Source of the DNA: Shigella phage vB_SdyM_006
Sequence record: MK295204
DNA length: 64,000 bases
Reading direction: 5' to 3' (one strand)
The position numbers and the translations under genes were made by a program. The notes beneath the pieces are model-generated. The model searched no databases. It had not been told where the DNA came from and worked only from the letters and a program-made list of their open reading frames with translations. Positions 5,883-62,789 of this stretch are shown here, in pieces; within the stretch, counting starts at the first letter, position 1; each line of letters opens with the position of its first letter.

Positions 5883-6161
5883 TTATAAAGTGCTCTTTAA
5901 AGCCTTTTCTATATCTTTTGAATTAAGATTAACTTCTGTTTTGGCCACTATAGCTTTAGAAATATTAAATTTCTTAAATTTTGAAGAATTTAAAATAGTT
6001 TTTAAATCTTTAGCTTCTATGACATCTACAACGTCATTTTCGTTTTTACTTCCAATAATTACAGCACGATAGCCTTCAATTTCATCATATTTAGAAAATC
6101 TATATTGGAATTCTACACTAAAATCTTTAGATTCATTCAAAAATTCATCAAATGTTTTCAT
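5883..6161 (-). CDS. hypothetical protein
   Basis: ORF in track; preceded by a sigma70-like promoter. Confidence 0.5.
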   Translation of the reverse strand: MKTFDEFLNESKDFSVEFQYRFSKYDEIEGYRAVIIGSKNENDVVDVIEAKDLKTILNSSKFKKFNISKAIVAKTEVNLNSKDIEKALKSTL

Positions 6162-6191
6162 TTTTAATCTCTGGTGTTTAAATTTATAAGT

Positions 6192-6220
6192 ATTATATCA
6201 CAATTTTTATGATTGTAAAC
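6192..6220 (-). promoter_or_regulatory. sigma70-like (T4 early-type) promoter: -35 GTTTAC, 17-bp spacer, TGn-TATAAT
   Basis: Read on minus strand: GTTTAC-aatcataaaaattgtga-TATAAT. Confidence 0.5.
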
Positions 6221-6222
6221 TG

Positions 6223-6495
6223 TTATTTTAAATATTGGACCATTTTATCTACCATATCATCATCTCTGACATTAAACAAATAATCTACTTCTTTGCTATT
6301 TTTCAGTATTTGCCATTCACCTGCACGATGTCGAACAAAAGTATATGCTCCTGATTTGAATGAATCACTACTAATTTTTTTGACATGTTTTATCTTAAGG
6401 CCTTCAACCTCGGCCCATGCCACAATTTGTTGGGCTGGGGTTAATCCATAATTTTTACGCTTAACTTCTGTTATGAATTCATTAAATGTTTTCAT
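6223..6495 (-). CDS. hypothetical protein
   Basis: ORF in track; first 21 nt nearly identical to the start of ORF 5883..6161. Confidence 0.5.
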   Translation of the reverse strand: MKTFNEFITEVKRKNYGLTPAQQIVAWAEVEGLKIKHVKKISSDSFKSGAYTFVRHRAGEWQILKNSKEVDYLFNVRDDDMVDKMVQYLK

Positions 6496-6526
6496 TTTTC
6501 AATTATTCCTCTTTAGTGGTTTAAAC

Positions 6527-6555
6527 ATACTATCGTCTTAAATTACGTATGTAAA

Positions 6556-6556
<1 letters not shown>
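6527..6556 (-). promoter_or_regulatory. possible sigma70-like promoter (-35 GTTTAC, 18-bp spacer, -10 TAGTAT)
   Basis: Read on minus strand upstream of ORF 6223..6495. Confidence 0.35.
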
Positions 6557-44854: not shown

Positions 44855-45049
44855 TTATTTTACCTCAATGAGTTCACAATCGTATAAACAACTACACAGT
44901 TCACAAAAAGAATAAGCCGATGCATATGAATCAGTGTCTATCCAAAACCCAAGATTATCAATAGCACCTTTACGAACTTCATAAGCAAGTTGATAATCAA
45001 CTGTTTCAAATCCAATTTTCTTTTCTTCGCACCATACTATATATTTCAT
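44855..45049 (-). CDS. hypothetical small protein (tandem paralogue 2)
   Basis: 64 aa; paralogue of 44657..44854. Confidence 0.5.
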   Translation of the reverse strand: MKYIVWCEEKKIGFETVDYQLAYEVRKGAIDNLGFWIDTDSYASAYSFCELCSCLYDCELIEVK

Positions 45050-45894
45050 GAGTATTCCTTGTCATAATAAGAATCTGGAGTAAAAATATTTAACATATTT
45101 GTAGAATTATCAATAGTAATAATATTTTCCTGTTCAACTTCAGGTGTATAATATTTTAAAAACTCTTCTTTAACGTATTTTACTGGATCACTTTTATAAT
45201 CGTCAGTAGAAATATCAAATAATTCAATTGTATACGTATCAAGCCATTTTTCAGAACATGTTAATCGTCCACATAATAATCCATCATAAACGATAGCATA
45301 TTCAATATGGCCCCATTTATATGAGCTATCAGCGTCGTGTCTGATTAGATAAAACTTAATATCAGAATTCTCACAATCATCACTAATATTGTCACGAACA
45401 TCGTATTCATTGAGCTCGGTCAATTCACTTAAAGCATTAATAAACAGGTTTTTATATTGAGGGCCAGTTACTAACTTATCTTCTGTTAGTTCTTTCTCAA
45501 TAAATTCTTTTAAAGTTAAAACTGGCAATTCATACTTAGGAAATAATGCAGTTTCAGTAATAGTGCCGATATTCAATTCGGCCAATTTCTTAATAACAGA
45601 ATCTTCAGCTTTATCAGAATCAGTCCAAATATGAAGAACTTTAAAATTATGATTATTCCAAATTTTTTGTGGGTCAACATCAATCACATCTTGGGTTTTA
45701 GACAAAAACATTAAAAGGTAATCAGAATCATTCCACCCTACTGGGTTTTCGTATTTTTGAATGACTAGATATTGGAAATCAGTCATTAATGCATTATATC
45801 TTTCTTTAGAAGCTAAAGAAGTAGAATCCATAGATGAAGAAAAAGCTTCAATAACACTAGCTGGGTTTTTAATTAACATTTTGAATAGTCCCAT
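45046..45894 (-). CDS. hypothetical protein
   Basis: 282-aa ORF in track, no recognised motif. Confidence 0.5.
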   Translation of the reverse strand: MGLFKMLIKNPASVIEAFSSSMDSTSLASKERYNALMTDFQYLVIQKYENPVGWNDSDYLLMFLSKTQDVIDVDPQKIWNNHNFKVLHIWTDSDKAEDSVIKKLAELNIGTITETALFPKYELPVLTLKEFIEKELTEDKLVTGPQYKNLFINALSELTELNEYDVRDNISDDCENSDIKFYLIRHDADSSYKWGHIEYAIVYDGLLCGRLTCSEKWLDTYTIELFDISTDDYKSDPVKYVKEEFLKYYTPEVEQENIITIDNSTNMLNIFTPDSYYDKEYS

Positions 45895-46115
45895 GTGATT
45901 TTAACACGATCATGATATATTACTCTATCATGGCTTTTTGAAACTGTAAATCCTTTTTCTTTAAGAATTTCAATCAACGCATCTTTAATGGCTTCATTTT
46001 CTGGAAGCTTTGCGTAATGCTCTGTACTATCATGCAAAGCCAGTTGGCAAATATCATTTAACACAATAGCTAAATTGTGTTCAACAACAGTATTTTTAAG
46101 ATCAGATAAATTCAT
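45873..46115 (-). CDS. hypothetical protein
   Basis: ORF in track. Confidence 0.4.
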   Translation of the reverse strand: MNLSDLKNTVVEHNLAIVLNDICQLALHDSTEHYAKLPENEAIKDALIEILKEKGFTVSKSHDRVIYHDRVKITWDYSKC

Positions 46116-46200
46116 ATTATTCTCACAGTTGCGAATTGATGATGTGTATACTATATTATAAAATAGTGTTTGTAAACATCTAAAATAATTTAAAATAAAT

Positions 46201-46229
46201 GTTTACTTTTGCTGTCATTATGATATTAT
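46201..46229 (+). promoter_or_regulatory. sigma70-like early-type promoter inside a repeated promoter-RBS-start cassette (-35 GTTTAC, 17 bp, TGa-TATTAT)
   Basis: Cassette tgtttacttttgctg...tattatatacatattgaaac...ggagtatattATG also occurs at 60771-60845 and 61096-61168 on the minus strand. Confidence 0.55.
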
Positions 46230-46271
46230 ATACATATTGAAACGAAACATGAAAAACAAATGGAGTATATT

Positions 46272-46616
46272 ATGAATAAGACACAAATCAATGCAGTTTT
46301 AAAAACTTTAGGTTATGGTAATTTACGTTATTCTAATGGTAAAACATACCGCAGAGGAAACTCTATGGTTAAAGGTTTTCATTTAATTTCTACTGGTGCA
46401 TGTATGGTGACTTCACCAGAAACACAAAAATTTAGTGATCTTGTTAATGAGTTAAAACAACATTTTGAATTACAATCATATTATGACAATTGCATGGCAA
46501 TATTTGTGACAGGAAAATTAAAAATTGTTGTTTGTTTAACAAATTTTAATACATACGGTGGCTTAAACCCAGATTATAAAACATGGTTTGCATCTGTTAA
46601 TATTGAAAAGTTATAA
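46272..46616 (+). CDS. hypothetical protein
   Basis: Start set at the cassette ATG (MNKTQ...) 8 nt after GGAG; lone plus-strand gene among minus-strand genes. Confidence 0.5.
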   Translation: MNKTQINAVLKTLGYGNLRYSNGKTYRRGNSMVKGFHLISTGACMVTSPETQKFSDLVNELKQHFELQSYYDNCMAIFVTGKLKIVVCLTNFNTYGGLNPDYKTWFASVNIEKL

Positions 46617-46621
46617 AACAA

Positions 46622-46650
46622 AAATGGGACCGTAAGGTCCCATTTTCAAA
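46622..46650. terminator. bidirectional terminator (ATGGGACC-GTAA-GGTCCCAT)
   Basis: 8-bp stem; T-runs on both strands; sits between convergent genes. Confidence 0.6.
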
Positions 46651-47560
46651 TTAATCTTGTTACAGCTCCTATTCCTCCTCCAGCACCACCTAATCTTGTT
46701 AAATTTCTTAATGAAGAGCTTAAAGAGTTTTCTTCTGAAATTGTATCTATGGCACCAATTGCTTTTGATTCTAACCAATCAAGAGCTGCTTGCCTACCGA
46801 CAGAACCTACCTGCATCACCCTGTATGCGAATGTAACATCAAAAACAGCAATAGTATTATTATCTTCATATGAAAGTTCAGGAGCACCTACCGACATAGG
46901 AACACACCCTGTGAACATGGCAACAGTATGTGGAAGACCGTTTCTATTGTGTAAATTAACCTGGATATCGGCTTCAACATCTATAGGTAAAGCACGTAGT
47001 CCTGTGATTGGGTCTTCAACTGAATTCACCCAATCTTGCATAGCTCGATAATTACTTGCTTCTGAATCCATCCTAAACGAAATTATCAACGGGTCATATT
47101 CTCTAGATAGAACTTTTATATTAGGTGAATTATGATTTTTATCCATCTCATAAGATAGTCTGTTTTCTGGTAATTTGACAGAATAAACCATTAACCCAGA
47201 TGTTGGAAATGCCATATTAAAGAAATCTAATAGATAAGTCCCTACTTCAAATTCTCCTAATAATGATTGAACCACACGATTAGACATGGCTCCTAAAAGA
47301 TATTTAGAAACACCAGATTTTCTCACTAGTTTTTGAGTACCAGCAACAACTAGACTTGATACTGCACTAGTTACATCATTTTGAGATATTCCAAGAAAAT
47401 CTGTATCTATAGGTAAATTGTTAAACAAAAAACCACCAAAATTATCTAAAAGCTCATTAGTTTTTGATGATGGGGCTGTGGCAAAAACAACACTAAACAT
47501 GTTTGTTCTTTGGAAGTCAAGATTGACAGCTTGGCTTTTAAATTCTTCTAATGTATACAT
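46646..47560 (-). CDS. 54: baseplate tail tube initiator gp54
   Basis: 304 aa (T4 320 aa), synteny 29-48-54. Confidence 0.65.
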   Translation of the reverse strand: MYTLEEFKSQAVNLDFQRTNMFSVVFATAPSSKTNELLDNFGGFLFNNLPIDTDFLGISQNDVTSAVSSLVVAGTQKLVRKSGVSKYLLGAMSNRVVQSLLGEFEVGTYLLDFFNMAFPTSGLMVYSVKLPENRLSYEMDKNHNSPNIKVLSREYDPLIISFRMDSEASNYRAMQDWVNSVEDPITGLRALPIDVEADIQVNLHNRNGLPHTVAMFTGCVPMSVGAPELSYEDNNTIAVFDVTFAYRVMQVGSVGRQAALDWLESKAIGAIDTISEENSLSSSLRNLTRLGGAGGGIGAVTRLI

Positions 47561-48603
47561 TATAACAATCCTTCTGCAAACAAAGTTCCACGATTTAGTG
47601 TTAAAATCTCTCTAAACGTTATTTCAAGAGTAAACGTACTTGGTAAATTTGGGGCCATGGCTAGACCATTAAAATGTCCATTAGGAGATTTGTCAAATCT
47701 TATACTAGAAATCTGGGCTGGTCCAAATATATCAGTTCGGCCATCATAAGAAGATGTTTTACCAAAATTTCGTATAACCCATATTGTTGGGTTACTTACA
47801 ACAAGAACATTAGTTAAAAAACTTGTAATATTTTCCAATATTGTTCCTGAAGTATCAGCACCGTCTGGGGTATTAGGATTTATTAATGTTGTTTTATACC
47901 ATTCATCAATAGCGGCTTTAATTTCTTTAGCAAATTTAGACACACCTGTTTCACCATAAGAGAAATAACTAAATATTTCGTAAATATACAAAATTTGTAT
48001 AAGGTCTTGTGGAGTCCTTGGTGTTAAATGCCAGGTAAAAACTTTAGTTCTATTATCCGCTCCAGCATACATAGATCTAGCTGTAGTATAAATTTGTTCG
48101 CCTTTATCAGCCATAATTCCTTGTGTAATCGAATCTAATGCACCAAAAACAGCCGTTGACGCAACATTACTCAAAGCACCTGTTACGCTACCACCACCTT
48201 TAGTTAATAAAGAATCTCCAACATCATTAAATCTATGAGAAATGTTATCTACGTCAGATTGACTTCTTGGCATTAATATATTAGCAACAGATTCTTGACT
48301 AAAGGTGGTTGTCCCACCTTTTTTAGAAAAATCAATATTAATTGCGTCAACGGCATTTTGTTTTTTTCTAAAGTCTCTTAATGAGCCTGTATCGCGTGCA
48401 TTATAATTATATGCAGTAAATAACAGCCCGTTTTTATATAAGTCATTAAGTCTAAAATCTAAAGCATTATCTGTACCAGAGGCTCGTTCTGCTGGAAACT
48501 GAGCCACTAATGTTTTGGTTTGAGTATTTGTTGGATTAGAAGACCCAGCAGATATTTTTGTTCCTATTTTCTCTACTTCTTCATCCAGAACTTTTATTTT
48601 CAT
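47560..48603 (-). CDS. 48: baseplate tail tube junction protein gp48
   Basis: 347 aa (T4 364 aa), synteny. Confidence 0.65.
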   Translation of the reverse strand: MKIKVLDEEVEKIGTKISAGSSNPTNTQTKTLVAQFPAERASGTDNALDFRLNDLYKNGLLFTAYNYNARDTGSLRDFRKKQNAVDAINIDFSKKGGTTTFSQESVANILMPRSQSDVDNISHRFNDVGDSLLTKGGGSVTGALSNVASTAVFGALDSITQGIMADKGEQIYTTARSMYAGADNRTKVFTWHLTPRTPQDLIQILYIYEIFSYFSYGETGVSKFAKEIKAAIDEWYKTTLINPNTPDGADTSGTILENITSFLTNVLVVSNPTIWVIRNFGKTSSYDGRTDIFGPAQISSIRFDKSPNGHFNGLAMAPNLPSTFTLEITFREILTLNRGTLFAEGLL

Positions 48604-58090: not shown

Positions 58091-58359
58091 TATTTTCTAA
58101 AGATCTTACCAAATTTGCTAATCACAAAATTCTCACCAACTTTAATATCGATACGAATAGAAACATGTCCTATTGTATCAGTATTCAACATATCACTTAA
58201 AGACATTGAAGAATGTCTTTCGAAATCTTCAACAATATTAAACCCATCATTATCACAATGAGTGTCAATAAATTCTTTAAGCTTTACTGAGCTTCCTTCA
58301 GATAAAATAGGGTCATTATAGAAACGACAAGATGATTCAAATAATTTTAAAGTAACCAT
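58090..58359 (-). CDS. hypothetical protein
   Basis: Start set at internal ATG 58357-58359 (MVTLKLF...) with strong RBS AAAGGAGA. Confidence 0.45.
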   Translation of the reverse strand: MVTLKLFESSCRFYNDPILSEGSSVKLKEFIDTHCDNDGFNIVEDFERHSSMSLSDMLNTDTIGHVSIRIDIKVGENFVISKFGKIFRK

Positions 58360-58419
58360 GATATTCTCCTTTGTTGTTGATGTAAGTATAGTAACACTAC
58401 ACAAAGGAGATGTAAACAA

Positions 58420-60483
58420 TTAAATAATAAATTTTTCTGGGACAAAAGTAAGATCAACAGCTGTTGATAATAATTCTAGCCCTTTTTGACTAATTTTACC
58501 AGTATTTTCTTTTAAGAATTCTTTAAACCCAATTTTTTCGATTTTTCCTTCAGATAAAAACTTATTTCCGTCAATAAGTTCGCTTTCATCTAGTAATTCT
58601 GGATCCACTACAGATGTTTCTACTAATATTGGTCTATTAAATTCTATATCACGAGCGTTTTCATAACCGTGGATAGAATGAATCTTAAGAGCTAAACCTC
58701 TAGGTAAAATCACCTCGCATTCACTAGAGTATTTTGACATATTACCAGGAATAATAACATTGACTTTATGTGCACCTTTAATAGTTATACCCATAGAAAT
58801 GTTAATATCTGTTTTCTTAGTTGCTTTCTTACCATTAACGGCTACACCAATATTTTTTGGTGTCATAACTGTTGATATAACATCATCGAATGTTTCGGAT
58901 TCAAAAGTTACTGTAGTCGCGTTAGGTTTAATATTATCAAGAACATCATTTCGTTCCCCAAAAATAATTGGAGCTAATGAAGTCGAAATATAATTAGGAA
59001 AATATAATGTTTTATTTTTAGCAGCTTTTTCTACGTCGGCATAAGGTAATTTTTGTGCTCTATATAAAATAGTTCCTTTTTCTAACTTGGTTCCTTTTTT
59101 GAAGGCCCCATCTAAGACAGGAATTTTGTTTTCATACACAGATTTTAAACTTTTATCTTTACCAAGCAAAAAGTCGTTCATTTCTTCATATCCACGTAAA
59201 GCATAATCTGTGATAACTTTTCGCTCTTCTTCTGTTAAATCCATTTCTGTTTCGGTTCTAAATAACTCTTCTAAAGGAGTATAGAAAACATTTCTGTTTA
59301 AAGCAGAGATACAGCCTCTTAAAGCTCTAGTCTTAGCCACATTATCGTCAGGTCCATATGTTTCTAAATCTTCGGCTATTTTTTTGTAAACATCCATAGC
59401 ATTATTAGAAGTTTTGAGCGCATTGTTAATTATCAATATATACGGTTTTGCTAATTTATATTTTTCTTCACTAGATAAATGATAAAAATTTTCAACACCA
59501 TACCCAGATATGCGTTCTAAAGAATCTAATAAAAATCTAGCTTCTAGATCTGATTCTTCTTCACTCACGGCCGAATTTATTTTATCTAAAAACACAGATT
59601 TAGATTCATCAATTTTATTAAGGACATTTTTATGAACTAATGCAATTTTTGTAGAATCACTTTGGACAATAGGAGGATTATCTTGTAGTTCAATATATTT
59701 TCTTCTTCCTTCTTCAGAATAATTTTCTAAGTCTTCTGGTTTAGAAACACCATACATTGCTGATAATAATTCACGTCTAGAAACTTTAGTTTTTGAAATG
59801 ACAGATCGTTCACTTCTTGTGTTTTCTTGTGCTGCAATACTTCCTGCAATGGCTTCTAATTTAGACACTTGCTTGCCAGTTTTGTCATTGATATACACAT
59901 CACCTACTTTAGAATCGACTTTAGTATATAAGTCAGAATCAATACCAGGAATCCCAGCGATGTCTTCTAAAGGTCTGTTTTTACGATATATTAAAACATA
60001 AGCATGTTTACCTGTAAATTGATACAAATCTTCTAAGACAACAAATTTACCACCAGTACGTTGCATAGCCAGACGTTTGATTATTCTTTGTAATGTCTTT
60101 TCTTGGCCTTTCATTTTTTTAGCAGGGAATCTAAATAAAACTGCGTCCATTTTAAGTTTTTTAACTTGTTCGTATACAGTGTCAAAAATAGTATTCAATG
60201 CCCCAATAGGGTCTGAGCCTAAACCATTTCTTAATTCTGCTGCATTACCATTTTTAGACAAACTCATCAAAAACACTTGAACAAATTTATCACCTTGCTT
60301 TACTGCTTTTAATGCATCGCCTTTAGATAAATAAGACACCATTCTAACTAAAAGATTGTCATTTCCAGGAACACTGACATTCCATAATTGAGGGACCTTA
60401 GCCCTTTTATTAAGATTAATAGCTTTATATTGAGCTATTTCTGAATCAAAAACCTCATTTAAATTAATTTCATTTAATTCCAT
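58420..60483 (-). CDS. alt: ADP-ribosyltransferase Alt-like (capsid-packaged RNA polymerase modifier)
   Basis: 687 aa (T4 Alt 682 aa); C-terminal ART triad in order R (YRAQKL), S-T-S (YISTSLAP), E-x-E (SECEVILP); late promoter upstream. Confidence 0.75.
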   Translation of the reverse strand: MELNEINLNEVFDSEIAQYKAINLNKRAKVPQLWNVSVPGNDNLLVRMVSYLSKGDALKAVKQGDKFVQVFLMSLSKNGNAAELRNGLGSDPIGALNTIFDTVYEQVKKLKMDAVLFRFPAKKMKGQEKTLQRIIKRLAMQRTGGKFVVLEDLYQFTGKHAYVLIYRKNRPLEDIAGIPGIDSDLYTKVDSKVGDVYINDKTGKQVSKLEAIAGSIAAQENTRSERSVISKTKVSRRELLSAMYGVSKPEDLENYSEEGRRKYIELQDNPPIVQSDSTKIALVHKNVLNKIDESKSVFLDKINSAVSEEESDLEARFLLDSLERISGYGVENFYHLSSEEKYKLAKPYILIINNALKTSNNAMDVYKKIAEDLETYGPDDNVAKTRALRGCISALNRNVFYTPLEELFRTETEMDLTEEERKVITDYALRGYEEMNDFLLGKDKSLKSVYENKIPVLDGAFKKGTKLEKGTILYRAQKLPYADVEKAAKNKTLYFPNYISTSLAPIIFGERNDVLDNIKPNATTVTFESETFDDVISTVMTPKNIGVAVNGKKATKKTDINISMGITIKGAHKVNVIIPGNMSKYSSECEVILPRGLALKIHSIHGYENARDIEFNRPILVETSVVDPELLDESELIDGNKFLSEGKIEKIGFKEFLKENTGKISQKGLELLSTAVDLTFVPEKFII

Positions 60484-60513
60484 TTTATCACCTTTATAAT
60501 AAGAATATATTAC

Positions 60514-60521
60514 TATTTATA
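60514..60521 (-). promoter_or_regulatory. T4-type late promoter TATAAATA on minus strand (alt)
   Basis: Exact TATAAATA on minus strand 31 nt upstream of alt ATG. Confidence 0.55.
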
Positions 60522-60534
60522 CCAAAAAGGAGAC

Positions 60535-60560
60535 CGAAGTCTCCTTGTTTTTATATTATT
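60535..60560 (-). terminator. intrinsic terminator on minus strand (GGAGAC-CGAA-GTCTCC; T-run on minus)
   Basis: Hairpin followed by TTTTTGG on the minus strand downstream of ORF 60564..60773. Confidence 0.55.
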
Positions 60561-60563
60561 TAT

Positions 60564-60773
60564 TTATTCACCAATTTCTTCTAAGAAATTCTCATAATCA
60601 GTTGGGAATCTTTTCCAAAACTTTTTAATTTTTTGTTCTTTATTCTTGCATTCTGCCAATGAAATCATTAAACCGTTATCAGAATCAGATTCAACTCGTG
60701 TTAATGTTAAACCTAATTCAGAAAGTGCTGTTAAGTGATTTTGTGCCAATACATATAAATATAAATCAAACAT
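60564..60773 (-). CDS. hypothetical small protein
   Basis: Start set at cassette ATG (MFDLYLYV...) 8 nt after GGAG; the track ORF extends upstream into the promoter. Confidence 0.45.
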   Translation of the reverse strand: MFDLYLYVLAQNHLTALSELGLTLTRVESDSDNGLMISLAECKNKEQKIKKFWKRFPTDYENFLEEIGE

Positions 60774-60813
60774 AATATACTCCGTTGTTTCCGTGTGTTG
60801 TTTCAATATGTAT

Positions 60814-60842
60814 ATAATAACATGTCTACAGCAAAAGTAAAC
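60814..60842 (-). promoter_or_regulatory. sigma70-like early-type promoter, cassette copy 1 (-35 GTTTAC, 17 bp, TGt-TATTAT)
   Basis: Minus strand reads tgtttac-ttttgctgtagacatgt-tattat; identical core to the copy at 61136-61164. Confidence 0.55.
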
Positions 60843-60861
60843 ATGTTATTGTGGCTTTTTA

Positions 60862-61098
60862 TTAAATAATTCTAGCTATCAATGCAGAAGTATTAATACT
60901 AACAGTAAATTCCATTGGCGTTTCATCTTCTTCAGAACTAATTACCATTGAATGGATTTCGGTAACACCAGATACGGATAAAACTCTATCTTCAATAATA
61001 GTTATATGTGAAGAATATTCAAAAGGACCATATGGGTCTCCATCTAATCTAGATGTATCTTTAAGCATTTTTAACAATTCAGCACTTGATAATTTCAT
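60862..61098 (-). CDS. hypothetical small protein
   Basis: Start set at cassette ATG (MKLSSAELLK...) after GGAGTATATA; the track ORF extends upstream into the promoter. Confidence 0.45.
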   Translation of the reverse strand: MKLSSAELLKMLKDTSRLDGDPYGPFEYSSHITIIEDRVLSVSGVTEIHSMVISSEEDETPMEFTVSINTSALIARII

Positions 61099-61135
61099 TA
61101 TATACTCCATTTTCGTATGTTGTTTCAATATGTAT

Positions 61136-61164
61136 ATAATAACATGTCTACAGCAAAAGTAAAC
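61136..61164 (-). promoter_or_regulatory. sigma70-like early-type promoter, cassette copy 2
   Basis: Same sequence as copy 1. Confidence 0.55.
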
Positions 61165-61167
61165 AAA

Positions 61168-61190
61168 AAAGAGCCTTTCGGCTCTAAATA
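61168..61190 (-). terminator. intrinsic terminator on minus strand (AGAGCC-TTTC-GGCTCT; T-run on minus)
   Basis: Hairpin followed by TTTTTTGTTT on minus strand, downstream of the ligase gene. Confidence 0.5.
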
Positions 61191-61316
61191 ATTTTTGATA
61201 AATCATCTTGTATTGCTAAGATTTTATGAAAATCTGATTCTCTTATAGGACAAGACTTATCTAACTTAAATGATATTAAAGAATTCATAAAGATAGATTC
61301 TATTTGTTCTTCTAAA

Positions 61317-62789
61317 TCATCTATTAAAATATTCTTCTGGTGATTGTCCAAAGATTTCATAAAAGTCATTTGCCTCTTGTTTATCAAGACGTCTCATTTT
61401 AACACGTGGTAAAAATAAACTATATGTTTCTCGTCCATCAACTTTTTGAGCTGCATTACATACACCCGAGATAATCATACCGACAAGTTTACCTTTCTTA
61501 TGAAGATCCCATAATAAACGACGGTCTAATTCATGACGTTTATCGAGTGGAATCCAGATTTTTTCTTTTGAACCTTTTACCTTTTCGTAATCTTTATCCT
61601 TAAAACCAGAACCACAGTCAACTAAAATAGTCCCATCTCTAGACCTTAAATTGACACCACCTAATTTTTCAGGGTCTTTAGAATGTGGATACGCACCAAT
61701 AATTTCTAAATCAAAATCTTTTTCTTCTTTAAATTTTACTTGGTCACAAGTACGTCCATCAGACCAAACACCAAGTTTATTTTTTAGAATAATACCTTCT
61801 AACTTCATATCAACATATTTTCTGTAAATAACTTGGGCTTCTTCTAAAGTCTTAACTTCTTCTGATGGAATTAATTCTAAACGTCCTGCTTTTTTAGTAA
61901 TTAATTCTAAATTTTTTAACCTTTCTTTGTAAGGTTTATTAATTTCTGAATTATCAGTCTGTGTACCTTGTGTAACTTCATAGTTAATTAGATCCCAGAC
62001 CTGGAATTTAACACAATCTGCTTCGGTTTTTGAAATGGTTCCTTGGATTGATTTATTTGCAATACCGTTACCTTCTTCTCTAGAAGCAACAATATTTTCT
62101 TCTTCGTCTTCATCAAAGAATAAATCTAGACCTTGTTTTGTTGATTTAGGAAAATAAACTAGTTCACCATCAAGAACAACGTTTCCTAATCCTTCAGTGA
62201 TAGATACAATTTCTTCTTTTAGCAAATCTAGACCAAGATATTCGCTACCAGAACGAGAATATAAATTAACTTCCCCGTCTACAACTTCGGCAAAACATCT
62301 AGCACCATCTGCTTTAAGCTGAGCTAATGCTGGGAATTTAATTTTAGATACATTAGCTTTACTAAAAGGCGCTGCTAAAAACTGCGGCTGCTTTGGTAAT
62401 AAATTTTCCCATACTTTGTTTGGAATACTTCTTCCTACACCACATTCCAAGTCACGTTTGACAATGCGTTTAATTAATGCTGCATCTTTAGGGCATAAAC
62501 TTTCTAATACATCTTTTAAAGCAGCAATTGCAGCATGTCCTGTTAAAACCCGTTCACCTAAAACATTTTCTAAAAAATCTAAAGCGTCACGAAGTGTTTT
62601 AGATTCGGTTTTAGGTTCATATTCTGGAATCTTTTTAATATGGAATTTGACTCTTTGAGAATATGTTAATCTAAACACATCTTTTACTAATAAATTGTTT
62701 TTATATTTTAAAAGAATATTTTCTTTTTCTTTTAATGAATCCGTAGAAGCTAGTTCTACAATAATATCGTATACCATACCTTTTTCCAT
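61317..62789 (-). CDS. 30: ATP-dependent DNA ligase (gp30)
   Basis: Strong match to remembered T4 DNA ligase (VFRLTYS, LKADGARCFAEV, YLGLDLLKEE, VLDGELVY); 490 aa (T4 487 aa). Confidence 0.9.
   Translation of the reverse strand: MEKGMVYDIIVELASTDSLKEKENILLKYKNNLLVKDVFRLTYSQRVKFHIKKIPEYEPKTESKTLRDALDFLENVLGERVLTGHAAIAALKDVLESLCPKDAALIKRIVKRDLECGVGRSIPNKVWENLLPKQPQFLAAPFSKANVSKIKFPALAQLKADGARCFAEVVDGEVNLYSRSGSEYLGLDLLKEEIVSITEGLGNVVLDGELVYFPKSTKQGLDLFFDEDEEENIVASREEGNGIANKSIQGTISKTEADCVKFQVWDLINYEVTQGTQTDNSEINKPYKERLKNLELITKKAGRLELIPSEEVKTLEEAQVIYRKYVDMKLEGIILKNKLGVWSDGRTCDQVKFKEEKDFDLEIIGAYPHSKDPEKLGGVNLRSRDGTILVDCGSGFKDKDYEKVKGSKEKIWIPLDKRHELDRRLLWDLHKKGKLVGMIISGVCNAAQKVDGRETYSLFLPRVKMRRLDKQEANDFYEIFGQSPEEYFNR

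What the first reader, a model, noticed from the sequence alone, without database searches (positions are those of the whole stretch)
60771..60845. Triplicated promoter-5'UTR-RBS-start-codon cassette driving three unrelated small ORFs
A ~75-bp module (-35 GTTTAC, 17-bp spacer, extended -10 TGn-TATTAT, conserved leader atacatattgaaac..., GGAGTATAT(T/A)ATG) occurs at 60771-60845 (minus), 61096-61168 (minus) and 46198-46275 (plus). Copies 1 and 2 are nearly identical across the promoter. Each drives a different small ORF. This is consistent with modular shuffling of early-expression cassettes that capture or exchange downstream cargo ORFs.
Basis: seen in the sequence. Interest (0 to 1): 0.6.

Follow-up and report, generated by a model that had tools for sequence, protein, structure and literature searches.

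The report
T4-type early promoter cassettes (PeSLs)
The three repeated 70-75-bp modules are real, but they are ordinary early-gene promoter/ribosome-site cassettes of a T4-like Proteus phage, a kind of mobile regulatory cassette ("PeSL") already described in other T4-type phages.

Summary
A 43-nt core (GTTTAC, 17-nt spacer, TGn-TATTAT, ATACATATTGAAAC) occurs exactly three times in the window, with none expected by chance. Each copy ends in GGAGTATAT(T/A)ATG and starts a different small ORF.

The window comes from a T4-like Proteus myovirus (Straboviridae, Bragavirus). It is 99.6% identical to SJ_PmiM at copies 1-2 and 97.8% identical to phiP4-3 at copy 3. GTTTAC at -36 to -31, TGn and a -10 box define the T4 early promoter class. 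About 20 such cassettes occur per genome, and most share an A-rich leader and a GGAG-type SD. The three copies form a tight sub-family: they are the top 3 of 210 promoter pairs.

Copy 2 has a terminator hairpin directly upstream, and copy 1 has a 14-bp stem-loop inside the promoter. [quoted passage not shown]

Comparative evidence only partly supports cargo exchange:
- The copy-1 promoter-plus-ORF module is missing at this site in Pm5461 and PM2. Their distant homologue lies downstream of alt behind its own promoter.
- Copy 3 and its cargo are orthologous in all five relatives.

The conserved 3' end resembles the RegB/S1 cleavage site. This is a new member of a known kind, of low interest.

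The parts
60771..60850 (-). Copy 1, complete cassette. It contains an internal stem-loop, -35 GTTTAC (60842-60837), TGn plus -10 TGTTATTAT (60822-60814), a predicted TSS near 60807, a 34-nt A-rich leader, GGAGTATATTA (60783-60773) and ATG (60773-60771).
   Evidence: The copy is 100% identical in SJ_PmiM and phiP4-3.
60816..60850 (-). 14-bp inverted repeat with a 7-nt loop, AATAACATGTTTAC / GTAGACATGTTATT. It spans the -35 box and reaches the extended -10 of copy 1, so it is a PeSL-type stem-loop inside the promoter. It would be present only in RNA that reads through from copy 2.
   Evidence: the repeat finder pair I5, 93% complementary. The RNA fold shows a 14-pair stem; the 91-nt segment has z = -2.4.
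60564..60773 (-). Cargo ORF1, 69 aa, PHROG 25836, function unknown.
   Evidence: Homologues at 35-38% identity lie downstream of alt in Pm5461, PM2 and PSTCR6.
60527..60546 (-). Intrinsic-terminator-like hairpin plus T-run. It ends the ORF2-ORF1 early unit, just before the late promoter of alt.
   Evidence: The position is conserved in Pm5461.
61096..61168 (-). Copy 2, complete cassette. It contains -35 (61164-61159), TGn plus -10 (61144-61136), a predicted TSS near 61129, a 31-nt leader, GGAGTATATAA (61108-61098) and ATG (61098-61096).
61165..61185 (-). Terminator hairpin AGAGCCGAAAGGCTCT followed by a T-run that runs into the -35 of copy 2. This is the stem-loop-plus-promoter arrangement of T4/PST-type PeSLs.
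   Evidence: The segment including it folds with z = -4.2.
60862..61098 (-). Cargo ORF2, 78 aa, PHROG 22000, function unknown.
   Evidence: The orthologue Pm5461_189 sits behind a different early promoter.
46198..46275 (+). Copy 3, complete cassette. It contains -35 (46201-46206), TGn plus -10 (46221-46229), a predicted TSS near 46236, a 36-nt leader, GGAGTATATTA (46262-46272) and ATG (46272-46274). It has no stem-loop.
46272..46616 (+). Cargo ORF3, 114 aa, PHROG 13016, function unknown. It is orthologous in SJ_PmiM, Pm5461, PM2 and phiP4-3.
46148..46177 (-). Divergent partner early promoter (GTTTAC-N18-TAGTAT), back-to-back with copy 3. It drives the leftward early cluster.

Best explanation
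Each copy is a T4-type early transcription/translation cassette. On infection, host sigma-70 RNA polymerase recognises the strong promoter: an A/T-rich upstream region, -35 GTTTAC, a 17-nt spacer, TGn and -10 TATTAT. Transcription starts about 7 nt after the -10 box. The transcript has a 31-36-nt A-rich, unstructured leader and a GGAG Shine-Dalgarno 6 nt before the AUG, so the small accessory ORF is translated at once.

Copies 2 and 1 form a tandem unit: terminator hairpin, P2, ORF2, stem-loop/P1, ORF1, terminator. This unit lies in the hyperplastic region between DNA ligase and alt. Copy 3 is one half of a divergent early promoter pair next to the baseplate genes.

The three copies belong to a family of about 20 such cassettes per genome. 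They are unusually alike because of recent duplication or gene conversion among cassettes. That is the behaviour described for PeSL (promoter-early stem-loop) cassettes, whose 50-100 bp of homology lets the T4 recombination system insert, delete or move promoter-plus-ORF modules.

The conserved 3' end, GGAGUAUAU(U/A)A, probably also serves as a RegB/S1 cleavage site that shuts these early mRNAs off.

What is shown: the sequence anatomy, the family structure and the comparative indels. What is inferred: promoter activity, the start site, the recombination mechanism and RegB cleavage.
For: Source:
- The window is a T4-like Bragavirus phage carrying alt, ligase, hoc and baseplate genes.

Promoter class:
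- GTTTAC at -36 to -31 plus TGn, a -10 box and an A-rich upstream region is the published T4 early promoter signature.
- phiP4-3 has 21 and SJ_PmiM has 20 GTTTAC-N17/18-TAnnnT cassettes followed by an SD and ATG.
- The motif GGAGnnTAnnATG lies within 65 nt behind such a promoter in 12 of 13 cases in SJ and 7 of 11 in phiP4-3.
- T-even coliphages ime09, IME08 and LZ1 carry the same promoter-leader-SD architecture. They match copy 1 at about 83% over 53 nt.

Sub-family status:
- Outside the two hexamers the three pairs are 100%, 82% and 82% identical.
- The mean over 210 pairs is 37% with sd 11%, and the next best pair is 67%.

PeSL features:
- A terminator hairpin abuts copy 2.
- A 14-bp stem-loop lies inside copy 1.
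- The cassettes sit in a hyperplastic region upstream of ORFs of unknown function.

Indels and relocation:
- P1 plus ORF1 is absent at this site in Pm5461 and PM2.
- The distant ORF1 homologue there lies downstream of alt behind its own GTTTACTTTTGCT promoter.

Exchange between cassettes:
- At 6 of the 8 positions where copy 3 differs from its orthologues it matches copies 1 and 2.

Leader:
- The leaders are unstructured, and there is no significant Rfam match.

RegB reading:
- The T4 consensus is GGAGRAYARAA. Copy 2 matches 9 of 11 positions and copies 1 and 3 match 8 of 11.
- GGAG sites in early cassettes score higher than other SD-like GGAG sites (p = 6e-4 and 6e-5).
- GGAG is enriched as the SD of the first gene after an early promoter: 12 of 21 against 39 of 199, p = 4e-4.
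- phiP4-3 encodes RegB, PF10715, E = 1e-51.
Against: - No transcript data exist, so promoter activity, start sites and timing are inferred from consensus and from T4.
- Copy 3 has no stem-loop, and its promoter and cargo are orthologous in all relatives. It is a resident promoter, not a demonstrably mobile cassette.
- The window and Pm5461 arrangements at ligase-alt cannot be interconverted by a single crossover between two promoters. A crossover between P2 and P1 would delete ORF2, not ORF1.
- ORF1 is only 35% identical to the Pm5461 gene. The history therefore involves more than one event or an outside donor.
- The gene-conversion signal rests on few sites (6, 3 and 2 informative positions).
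- Cross-genus conservation of spacer and leader shows that purifying selection on these positions also contributes to similarity.
- Positions 5, 9 and 10 of the RegB consensus are not matched.
- The control set is crude, and paralogous cassettes are not independent.
Confidence: 0.8

Rival explanations
1. Convergence only. The three copies are alike because selection drives every strong early promoter and leader towards one optimum. No duplication, conversion or mobility is involved.
For: An extended consensus beyond the hexamers is documented for T4 early promoters. Very similar spacers and leaders occur in distant genera such as ime09 and IME08. Most cassettes share the A-rich leader and the GGAG-TAT-ATG end.
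Against: Other early promoters in the same genome are only 37% (sd 11%) identical outside the hexamers, yet copies 1 and 2 are 100% identical over 33 non-hexamer positions and 82% identical to copy 3. Copy 3 shares 6 of its 8 lineage-specific states with copies 1 and 2. P1 plus ORF1 is a discrete indel relative to Pm5461 and PM2.
Confidence: 0.1
2. Post-transcriptional operator. The conserved leader and the SD-AUG segment are kept mainly as a binding or cleavage site for a phage regulator, either RegB/S1 endonuclease or the RegA translational repressor. The three ORFs would then form a co-regulated set. This complements the best explanation rather than excluding it.
For: The 11-mers match the RegB/S1 consensus GGAGRAYARAA at 8-9 of 11 positions, and early-cassette GGAG sites score higher than other sites. 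The leaders are single-stranded. The closest complete relative encodes RegB and RegA. The motif is almost confined to early cassettes.
Against: The match to the consensus is imperfect, with U at positions 5 and 9, and at position 10 in copies 1 and 3. The statistics use a crude control and non-independent cassettes. No resemblance to a RegA site was tested. The specific ATACATATTGAAAC leader is unique to these three copies and is not explained by RegB.
Confidence: 0.35
3. Translation gating by transcript origin. The untranscribed upstream half of the cassette pairs with its own SD, so that only RNA started at the cassette promoter is translated.
For: Three cassettes per genome, including the neighbouring one at window 58358-58417 (-), have strong spacer-SD hairpins of -13 to -21 kcal/mol. 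Own-pair energies beat shuffled pairings overall.
Against: For the three copies of this finding, own-pair duplex energies (-9.7, -7.3 and -5.4 kcal/mol) are unremarkable. Their ranks are 3-16 of 20-21. The weak -10/SD pairing comes from TATATA-type low complexity.
Confidence: 0.03
4. Assembly or annotation artefact, or a non-promoter element such as an sRNA or a replication or packaging site.
For: None specific.
Against: The same copies occur in three independently sequenced genomes: the window, SJ_PmiM and phiP4-3. Each sits at the correct distance and orientation before an ORF. There is no significant Rfam family match.
Confidence: 0.02

Closest known systems
PeSL (promoter-early stem-loop) cassettes of T4-type phages (Arbiol et al. 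2010, PMC2839356; Comeau et al. 2014, PMC4122927)
   Same: Both are composite modules: upstream stop codon or AT-rich tract, stem-loop, early promoter, SD and start codon. Both are repeated many times per genome, concentrated in hyperplastic regions upstream of small ORFs of unknown function, and associated with indels between close relatives. The T4/PST-type consensus TTTACW-N17-TAYWAT and a stem-loop just upstream match copy 2. A stem-loop overlapping the -35 and -10 boxes, a subclass seen in phi1 and RB49, matches copy 1.
   Different: The host genus differs: PeSLs have not been described in Bragavirus or Proteus phages. Copy 3 has no stem-loop. The stems are AT-rich or AGAGCC-type rather than G4...C4. 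No mini-circle, promoter or terminator assay exists here. The observed indel is not explained by one crossover between two cassettes.
T4 early promoters (Pe), the 'uber' UP/-35/TGn/-10 class (Hinton 2010, PMC2988021; Nolan et al. 2006, PMC1524935)
   Same: They share GTTTAC at -36 to -31, the extended -10 TGn, the -10 TAnnnT and an A-rich upstream region. Both are placed before early genes and novel ORFs. There is direct sequence similarity of about 83% over 53 nt to promoters in T-even phages, for example upstream of the motA region and of 30.7.
   Different: The -10 box is TATTAT rather than TATAAT. The ATACATATTGAAAC initial transcribed sequence is specific to this lineage: the IMG/VR scan found it only in phiP4-3, and a metagenome scan for a 28-base core pattern (-35 to just past the -10, excluding that leader) found nothing.
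RegB/S1 target sites in T4 early mRNAs (Durand et al. 2006, PMC1702504)
   Same: GGAG lies within the SD of early genes, in single-stranded RNA, followed by an A/U-rich 7-mer. RegB is encoded by the closest complete relative.
   Different: Only 8-9 of 11 consensus positions match. Cleavage has not been tested.
Morons and integron cassettes, the analogies drawn in the PeSL paper
   Same: Each is a single accessory gene that travels with its own expression signals.
   Different: No integrase or attC-type site is present. Homology of the regulatory cassette itself is the proposed vehicle. Orientation follows the neighbouring early genes.

Membership tests
T4-type early promoter | -35 hexamer GTTTAC, about 17 nt upstream of a -10 TAnnnT box | tested here: met
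   All three copies have GTTTAC-N17-TATTAT. The consensus is stated.
T4-type early promoter | Extended -10 (TGn) | tested here: met
   The sequence is TGTTATTAT in copies 1 and 2 and TGATATTAT in copy 3. The scan flags TG in all three.
T4-type early promoter | A-rich UP-like tract around -40 to -44 | tested here: inconclusive
   Copy 3 (aaaataaat) and copy 1 (aataacat) are A-rich. Copy 2 has the T-run of the terminator there.
T4-type early promoter | Transcription by unmodified host RNA polymerase immediately after infection | not testable with these tools
   No transcript data are available.
PeSL cassette | Stem-loop adjacent to or overlapping the early promoter | tested here: met
   Met for copy 2 (hairpin at 61170-61185 plus T-run) and for copy 1 (14-bp inverted repeat at 60816-60850). 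Not met for copy 3 (z = -0.3).
PeSL cassette | SD and start codon of the downstream ORF form the 3' end of the conserved module | tested here: met
   GGAGTATAT(T/A)ATG is present in all three copies, and identity stops at the ATG. The motif is tightly linked to early promoters genome-wide.
PeSL cassette | Many copies per genome, enriched in hyperplastic regions before ORFs of unknown function | tested here: met
   There are 20-21 cassettes per genome. Copies 1 and 2 lie between ligase and alt. The cargo has unknown function. Enrichment was judged by inspection and was not tested statistically.
PeSL cassette | Indels or replacements between close relatives coincide with the cassettes | tested here: met
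   Met for copy 1 and ORF1, and for the gene-187 module downstream of alt in Pm5461. Not seen at copy 3.
PeSL cassette | Recombination between cassettes yields deletions or mini-circles; promoter and terminator activities demonstrated | not testable with these tools
   This needs PCR or deep sequencing of lysates and reporter assays.
RegB/S1 target site | 11-nt single-stranded GGAGRAYARAA | tested here: inconclusive
   The match is 9 of 11 for copy 2 and 8 of 11 for copies 1 and 3. The leaders are unstructured. Early-cassette sites score higher than other sites.
RegB/S1 target site | Phage encodes RegB | tested here: met
   phiP4-3 gene 172 matches PF10715 with E = 1e-51. The gene lies outside the 64-kb window.

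The most novel reading that the evidence does not exclude
The cassettes are actively copied as complete promoter-to-SD units between distant, oppositely oriented loci. Copy 3, 14.6 kb away, would exchange sequence with copies 1 and 2 by gene conversion or mini-circle reintegration. Each unit would be a self-contained 'express at once, then be cut by RegB' module. The Bragavirus phages would then provide a clean natural system, with a 322-bp direct-repeat interval around ORF2, in which PeSL mobility and its coupling to post-transcriptional shut-off could be measured directly.
Probability: 0.25. Interest if true: 0.4.

Novelty: new member of a known kind. Interest (0 to 1): 0.2.

Why it matters
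It adds little conceptually. It shows that the PeSL/early-promoter cassette organisation described for RB49/phi1, T4/PST and KVP40/nt-1 also holds in Proteus T4-like phages, which are used in phage-therapy cocktails. It also shows that promoter, leader and a RegB-like SD are inherited as one unit.

Practical value:
- These cassettes mark immediate-early accessory genes of unknown function, which are candidate host-takeover or anti-defence genes.
- They mark likely recombination hot spots.
- The two identical copies 322 bp apart give a simple assay for cassette-mediated deletion or mini-circle formation.

Tried and rejected
- Structured leader or known RNA family: the leaders fold weakly, and Rfam in E-value mode over 44-64 kb gave only sub-threshold chance hits.
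- Promoter-embedded anti-SD hairpin for the three copies: a duplex-energy test against all other cassettes showed nothing special for copies 1-3, although it holds for three other cassettes per genome.
- More copies or other cargo elsewhere: the IMG/VR scan for the diagnostic 20-mer found only phiP4-3 itself. A metagenome scan for the 28-specified-base core found nothing.
- Selection signal from relatives: window, SJ_PmiM and phiP4-3 differ at one position each over 60400-61400, so this comparison is uninformative.
- GGAG as a general early-strand SD: it is not enriched on the early strand as a whole, at 18-20% against 29-31% on the late strand. It is enriched only for the first gene after an early promoter.
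- Function of the cargo ORFs: there is no Pfam hit, and the PHROG families have unknown function. The large homology and structure searches were not spent on them because they would not change the verdict.
- Literature on Proteus and Morganella T4-like phages only counts promoters and does not mention PeSLs.

Full report
**Observation.** The three modules exist as described. A 43-nt core, GTTTACTTTTGCTGTNNNNATGNTATTATATACATATTGAAAC, is found exactly three times: at 60800-60842 (-), 61122-61164 (-) and 46201-46243 (+). None was found in 100 dinucleotide-preserving shuffles, even with three mismatches allowed. The repeat finder reports copies 1 and 2 as a 56-nt direct repeat at 96% identity, 322 bp apart, plus a 16-nt repeat covering the SD and start codon. 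Similarity begins 1-2 nt before the -35 hexamer and ends at the ATG, and the coding sequences are unrelated. The three ORFs (69, 78 and 114 aa) belong to three different PHROG families of unknown function and have no Pfam match.

**Source and context.** The window is from a T4-like Proteus myovirus (Straboviridae, Bragavirus).
- It is 99.6% identical to SJ_PmiM over 60000-62000.
- At 45000-47600 it is closest to phiP4-3 (97.8%) and only 83% identical to SJ_PmiM. It is therefore mosaic relative to the sequenced isolates.
- Copies 2 and 1 lie in tandem between DNA ligase (gp30) and the ADP-ribosyltransferase gene alt.
- Copy 3 lies next to the baseplate gene cluster, back-to-back with a divergent early promoter.

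**What the modules are.** GTTTAC at -36 to -31, an extended -10 (TGn), a -10 TAnnnT box and an A-rich upstream tract are the published signature of T4 early promoters. These are described as 'uber' UP/-35/TGn/-10 promoters and are commonly found before novel ORFs.
- Whole-genome scans give about 20 such promoters followed by an SD and ATG in both SJ_PmiM and phiP4-3.
- Most share a G-poor leader (a.aCATCAAAACAAA) and an SD-start motif GGAGT(A/C)TAT(A/T)ATG.
- The motif GGAGnnTAnnATG lies within 65 nt behind a GTTTAC promoter in 12 of 13 occurrences in SJ_PmiM and 7 of 11 in phiP4-3. Promoter and translation signals are therefore inherited as one module.
- The same whole-cassette architecture occurs in T-even coliphages of other genera. 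Examples are ime09, IME08 and LZ1 upstream of gene 30.7 in the equivalent ligase-alt region. They match copy 1 at about 83% over 53 nt.

**The three copies are a sub-family.** Among 21 cassettes of phiP4-3, identity outside the two hexamers averages 37% (sd 11%) over 210 pairs. The three pairs of interest are the top three at 100%, 82% and 82%, and the next best pair is 67%. The diagnostic 20-mer TATTATATACATATTGAAAC is found in IMG/VR only in phiP4-3. A metagenome scan for a 28-base core pattern found nothing.

**Anatomy.**
- A terminator hairpin (61170-61185) plus a T-run abuts the -35 of copy 2, isolating it from ligase transcription.
- Copy 1 has a 14-bp inverted repeat (60816-60829 / 60837-60850, 7-nt loop) that spans its -35 box and reaches the extended -10.
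- A terminator follows ORF1 (60527-60546). It is followed immediately by the T4 late-promoter motif TATAAATA (60514-60521) before alt.
- Copy 3 has no stem-loop.
- Predicted leaders are 31-36 nt long, A-rich and essentially unstructured.
- No Rfam family matches significantly.

**Comparison with the literature.** Arbiol et al. 2010 and Comeau et al. 2014 describe PeSLs as composite, repeated cassettes. Their order is upstream stop or AT-rich tract, stem-loop, early promoter, SD and start codon.
- They lie mainly in hyperplastic regions before ORFans and flank indels between close relatives.
- They are proposed to mediate 'modular shuffling' through homologous recombination and mini-circles.
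- For T4/PST the consensus is TTTACW-N17-TAYWAT with the stem-loop just upstream. In phi1/RB49 the stem-loop often lies between or over the boxes.

Copy 2 fits the first layout and copy 1 fits the second. Papers on Proteus and Morganella T4-like phages only count promoters and do not mention PeSLs.

**Test of cargo exchange.**
- Copy 3. Promoter and cargo are orthologous in SJ_PmiM, Pm5461, PM2 and phiP4-3. It is a resident promoter and its cargo was not captured recently. Window/phiP4-3 copy 3 differs from its orthologues at 8 of 43 core positions. At 6 of these it carries the state of copies 1 and 2, whereas only 3 positions group copy 3 with its orthologue against copy 1. This points to intragenomic exchange between cassettes 14.6 kb apart, either by gene conversion or by derivation of copies 1 and 2 from this allele. 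The number of informative sites is small.
- Copy 2. Its cargo is retained in Pm5461 and PM2 behind an early promoter at the same position. That promoter shares only GTTTACTTTTGCT and the general layout.
- Copy 1. The P1-ORF1 module is absent between ligase and alt in Pm5461 and PM2. The only ORF1 homologues (35-38% identity) lie downstream of alt in Pm5461, PM2 and Providencia phage PSTCR6, each behind its own GTTTAC promoter. The window lineage lacks that module downstream of alt.

Promoter-plus-ORF units do differ in presence and position around alt, as the PeSL model predicts. The low identity, and the fact that a P2 x P1 crossover would delete ORF2 rather than ORF1, mean the history is not a single simple event.

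Two further details are suggestive only. The spacer of copies 1 and 2 combines TTTTGCT, as in P187 and P189 of Pm5461, with TAGACATGT, as in P186 of Pm5461. The nine bases AATTATTTA occur in register upstream of both copy 1 and copy 2.

**The conserved 3' end.** In T4, RegB endonuclease with ribosomal protein S1 cuts early mRNAs within GGAG at an 11-nt single-stranded site. The consensus is GGAGRAYARAA, and the T4 form is GGAGAAUAAAA.
- Copy 2 (GGAGUAUAUAA) matches 9 of 11 positions. Copies 1 and 3 match 8 of 11.
- The T-even LZ1 cassette carries the exact T4 consensus.
- SD-like GGAG sites behind early promoters score higher against this consensus than other SD-like GGAG sites: 8.3 against 7.1-7.2, with Mann-Whitney p = 6e-4 and 6e-5.
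- GGAG is enriched as the SD of first genes after early promoters: 12 of 21 against 39 of 199, p = 4e-4.
- phiP4-3 encodes RegB (PF10715) and RegA (PF01818).

This makes a RegB-type shut-off function plausible but unproven. The controls are crude and the cassettes are not independent.

**Rejected idea.** Some cassettes have an untranscribed spacer that pairs with their own SD. The duplex-energy test finds three strong cases per genome, including window 58358-58417 (-). It finds nothing unusual for copies 1-3.

**Verdict.** The modules are T4-type early promoter/leader/SD cassettes, and two of them have PeSL-type stem-loops. The three copies form a recently homogenised sub-family within a family of about 20 members per genome. 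Modular shuffling is partly supported by comparative data but is an already published concept. This is a new member of a known kind, of low interest.

Noticed in passing
window 58358-58417 (-): The early promoter just downstream of alt (GTTTAC-N18-TACTAT) has a spacer, TCTCCTTTGT, that is complementary to the SD region, ACAAAGGAGA, of its own gene. The fold energy is -16.8 kcal/mol with z = -2.4. RNA reading through from the late gene alt would sequester the SD, whereas RNA started at the promoter lacks the upstream arm. Analogous spacer-SD hairpins occur at two other early promoters per genome, in PSTCR6, and at T-even LZ1 P30.8.
   Followed up: partly
window 60514-60546 (-): A terminator hairpin (60527-60546) is followed immediately by the T4 late-promoter motif TATAAATA (60514-60521) upstream of alt. 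This is consistent with alt being a late, virion-packaged protein as in T4. The arrangement is conserved in Pm5461.
   Followed up: partly
window 45000-47600 versus 60000-62000: The window is mosaic relative to sequenced isolates. At the ligase-alt locus it is 99.6% identical to SJ_PmiM and 97.3% to phiP4-3. At the copy-3 locus it is 97.8% identical to phiP4-3 and only 83% to SJ_PmiM. Left of copy 3, SJ_PmiM, Pm5461 and PM2 carry a different set of small ORFs.
   Followed up: partly
window 46148-46229: Two early promoters lie back-to-back and fire in opposite directions. Their -35 boxes with flanks (GTAAACAT / ATGTTTAC) form an 8-bp inverted repeat 21 nt apart. A weak sub-threshold Rfam 'mir-30' hit at 46163-46215 is probably caused by this symmetry.
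   Followed up: no
window 5883-6556 (-): Two tandem GTTTAC early promoters (-35 at 6220 and 6556) drive adjacent ORFs of 92 and 90 aa that both begin MKTF(D/N)EF. This may be a tandem promoter-plus-ORF duplication that has since diverged.
   Followed up: no
window 61184-61360 (-): A small ORF (58 aa, PHROG 24203) starts inside the 3' end of the DNA ligase gene in another frame, with a 44-nt overlap, and ends at the terminator before copy 2. It is conserved in SJ_PmiM and phiP4-3. Pm5461 has a shorter version.
   Followed up: no
window 46260-46274 (+) and 61096-61110 (-): In copies 3 and 2 the SD is embedded in an in-frame upstream ATG (ATGGAGTATAT.ATG, giving MEYIM...). Mechanical ORF calls therefore start 4 codons early. 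That ATG has no SD of its own and is absent in copy 1 (ACGGAG).
   Followed up: no
L018 (Providencia phage PSTCR6) 2960-3440: The region downstream of alt is an array of terminator/UP/GTTTAC-promoter/ORF units. The hairpin AAGGAGCCTAGTGCTCCTTTTTTTG is repeated identically before two successive promoters, which is a textbook PeSL array in another genus.
   Followed up: no
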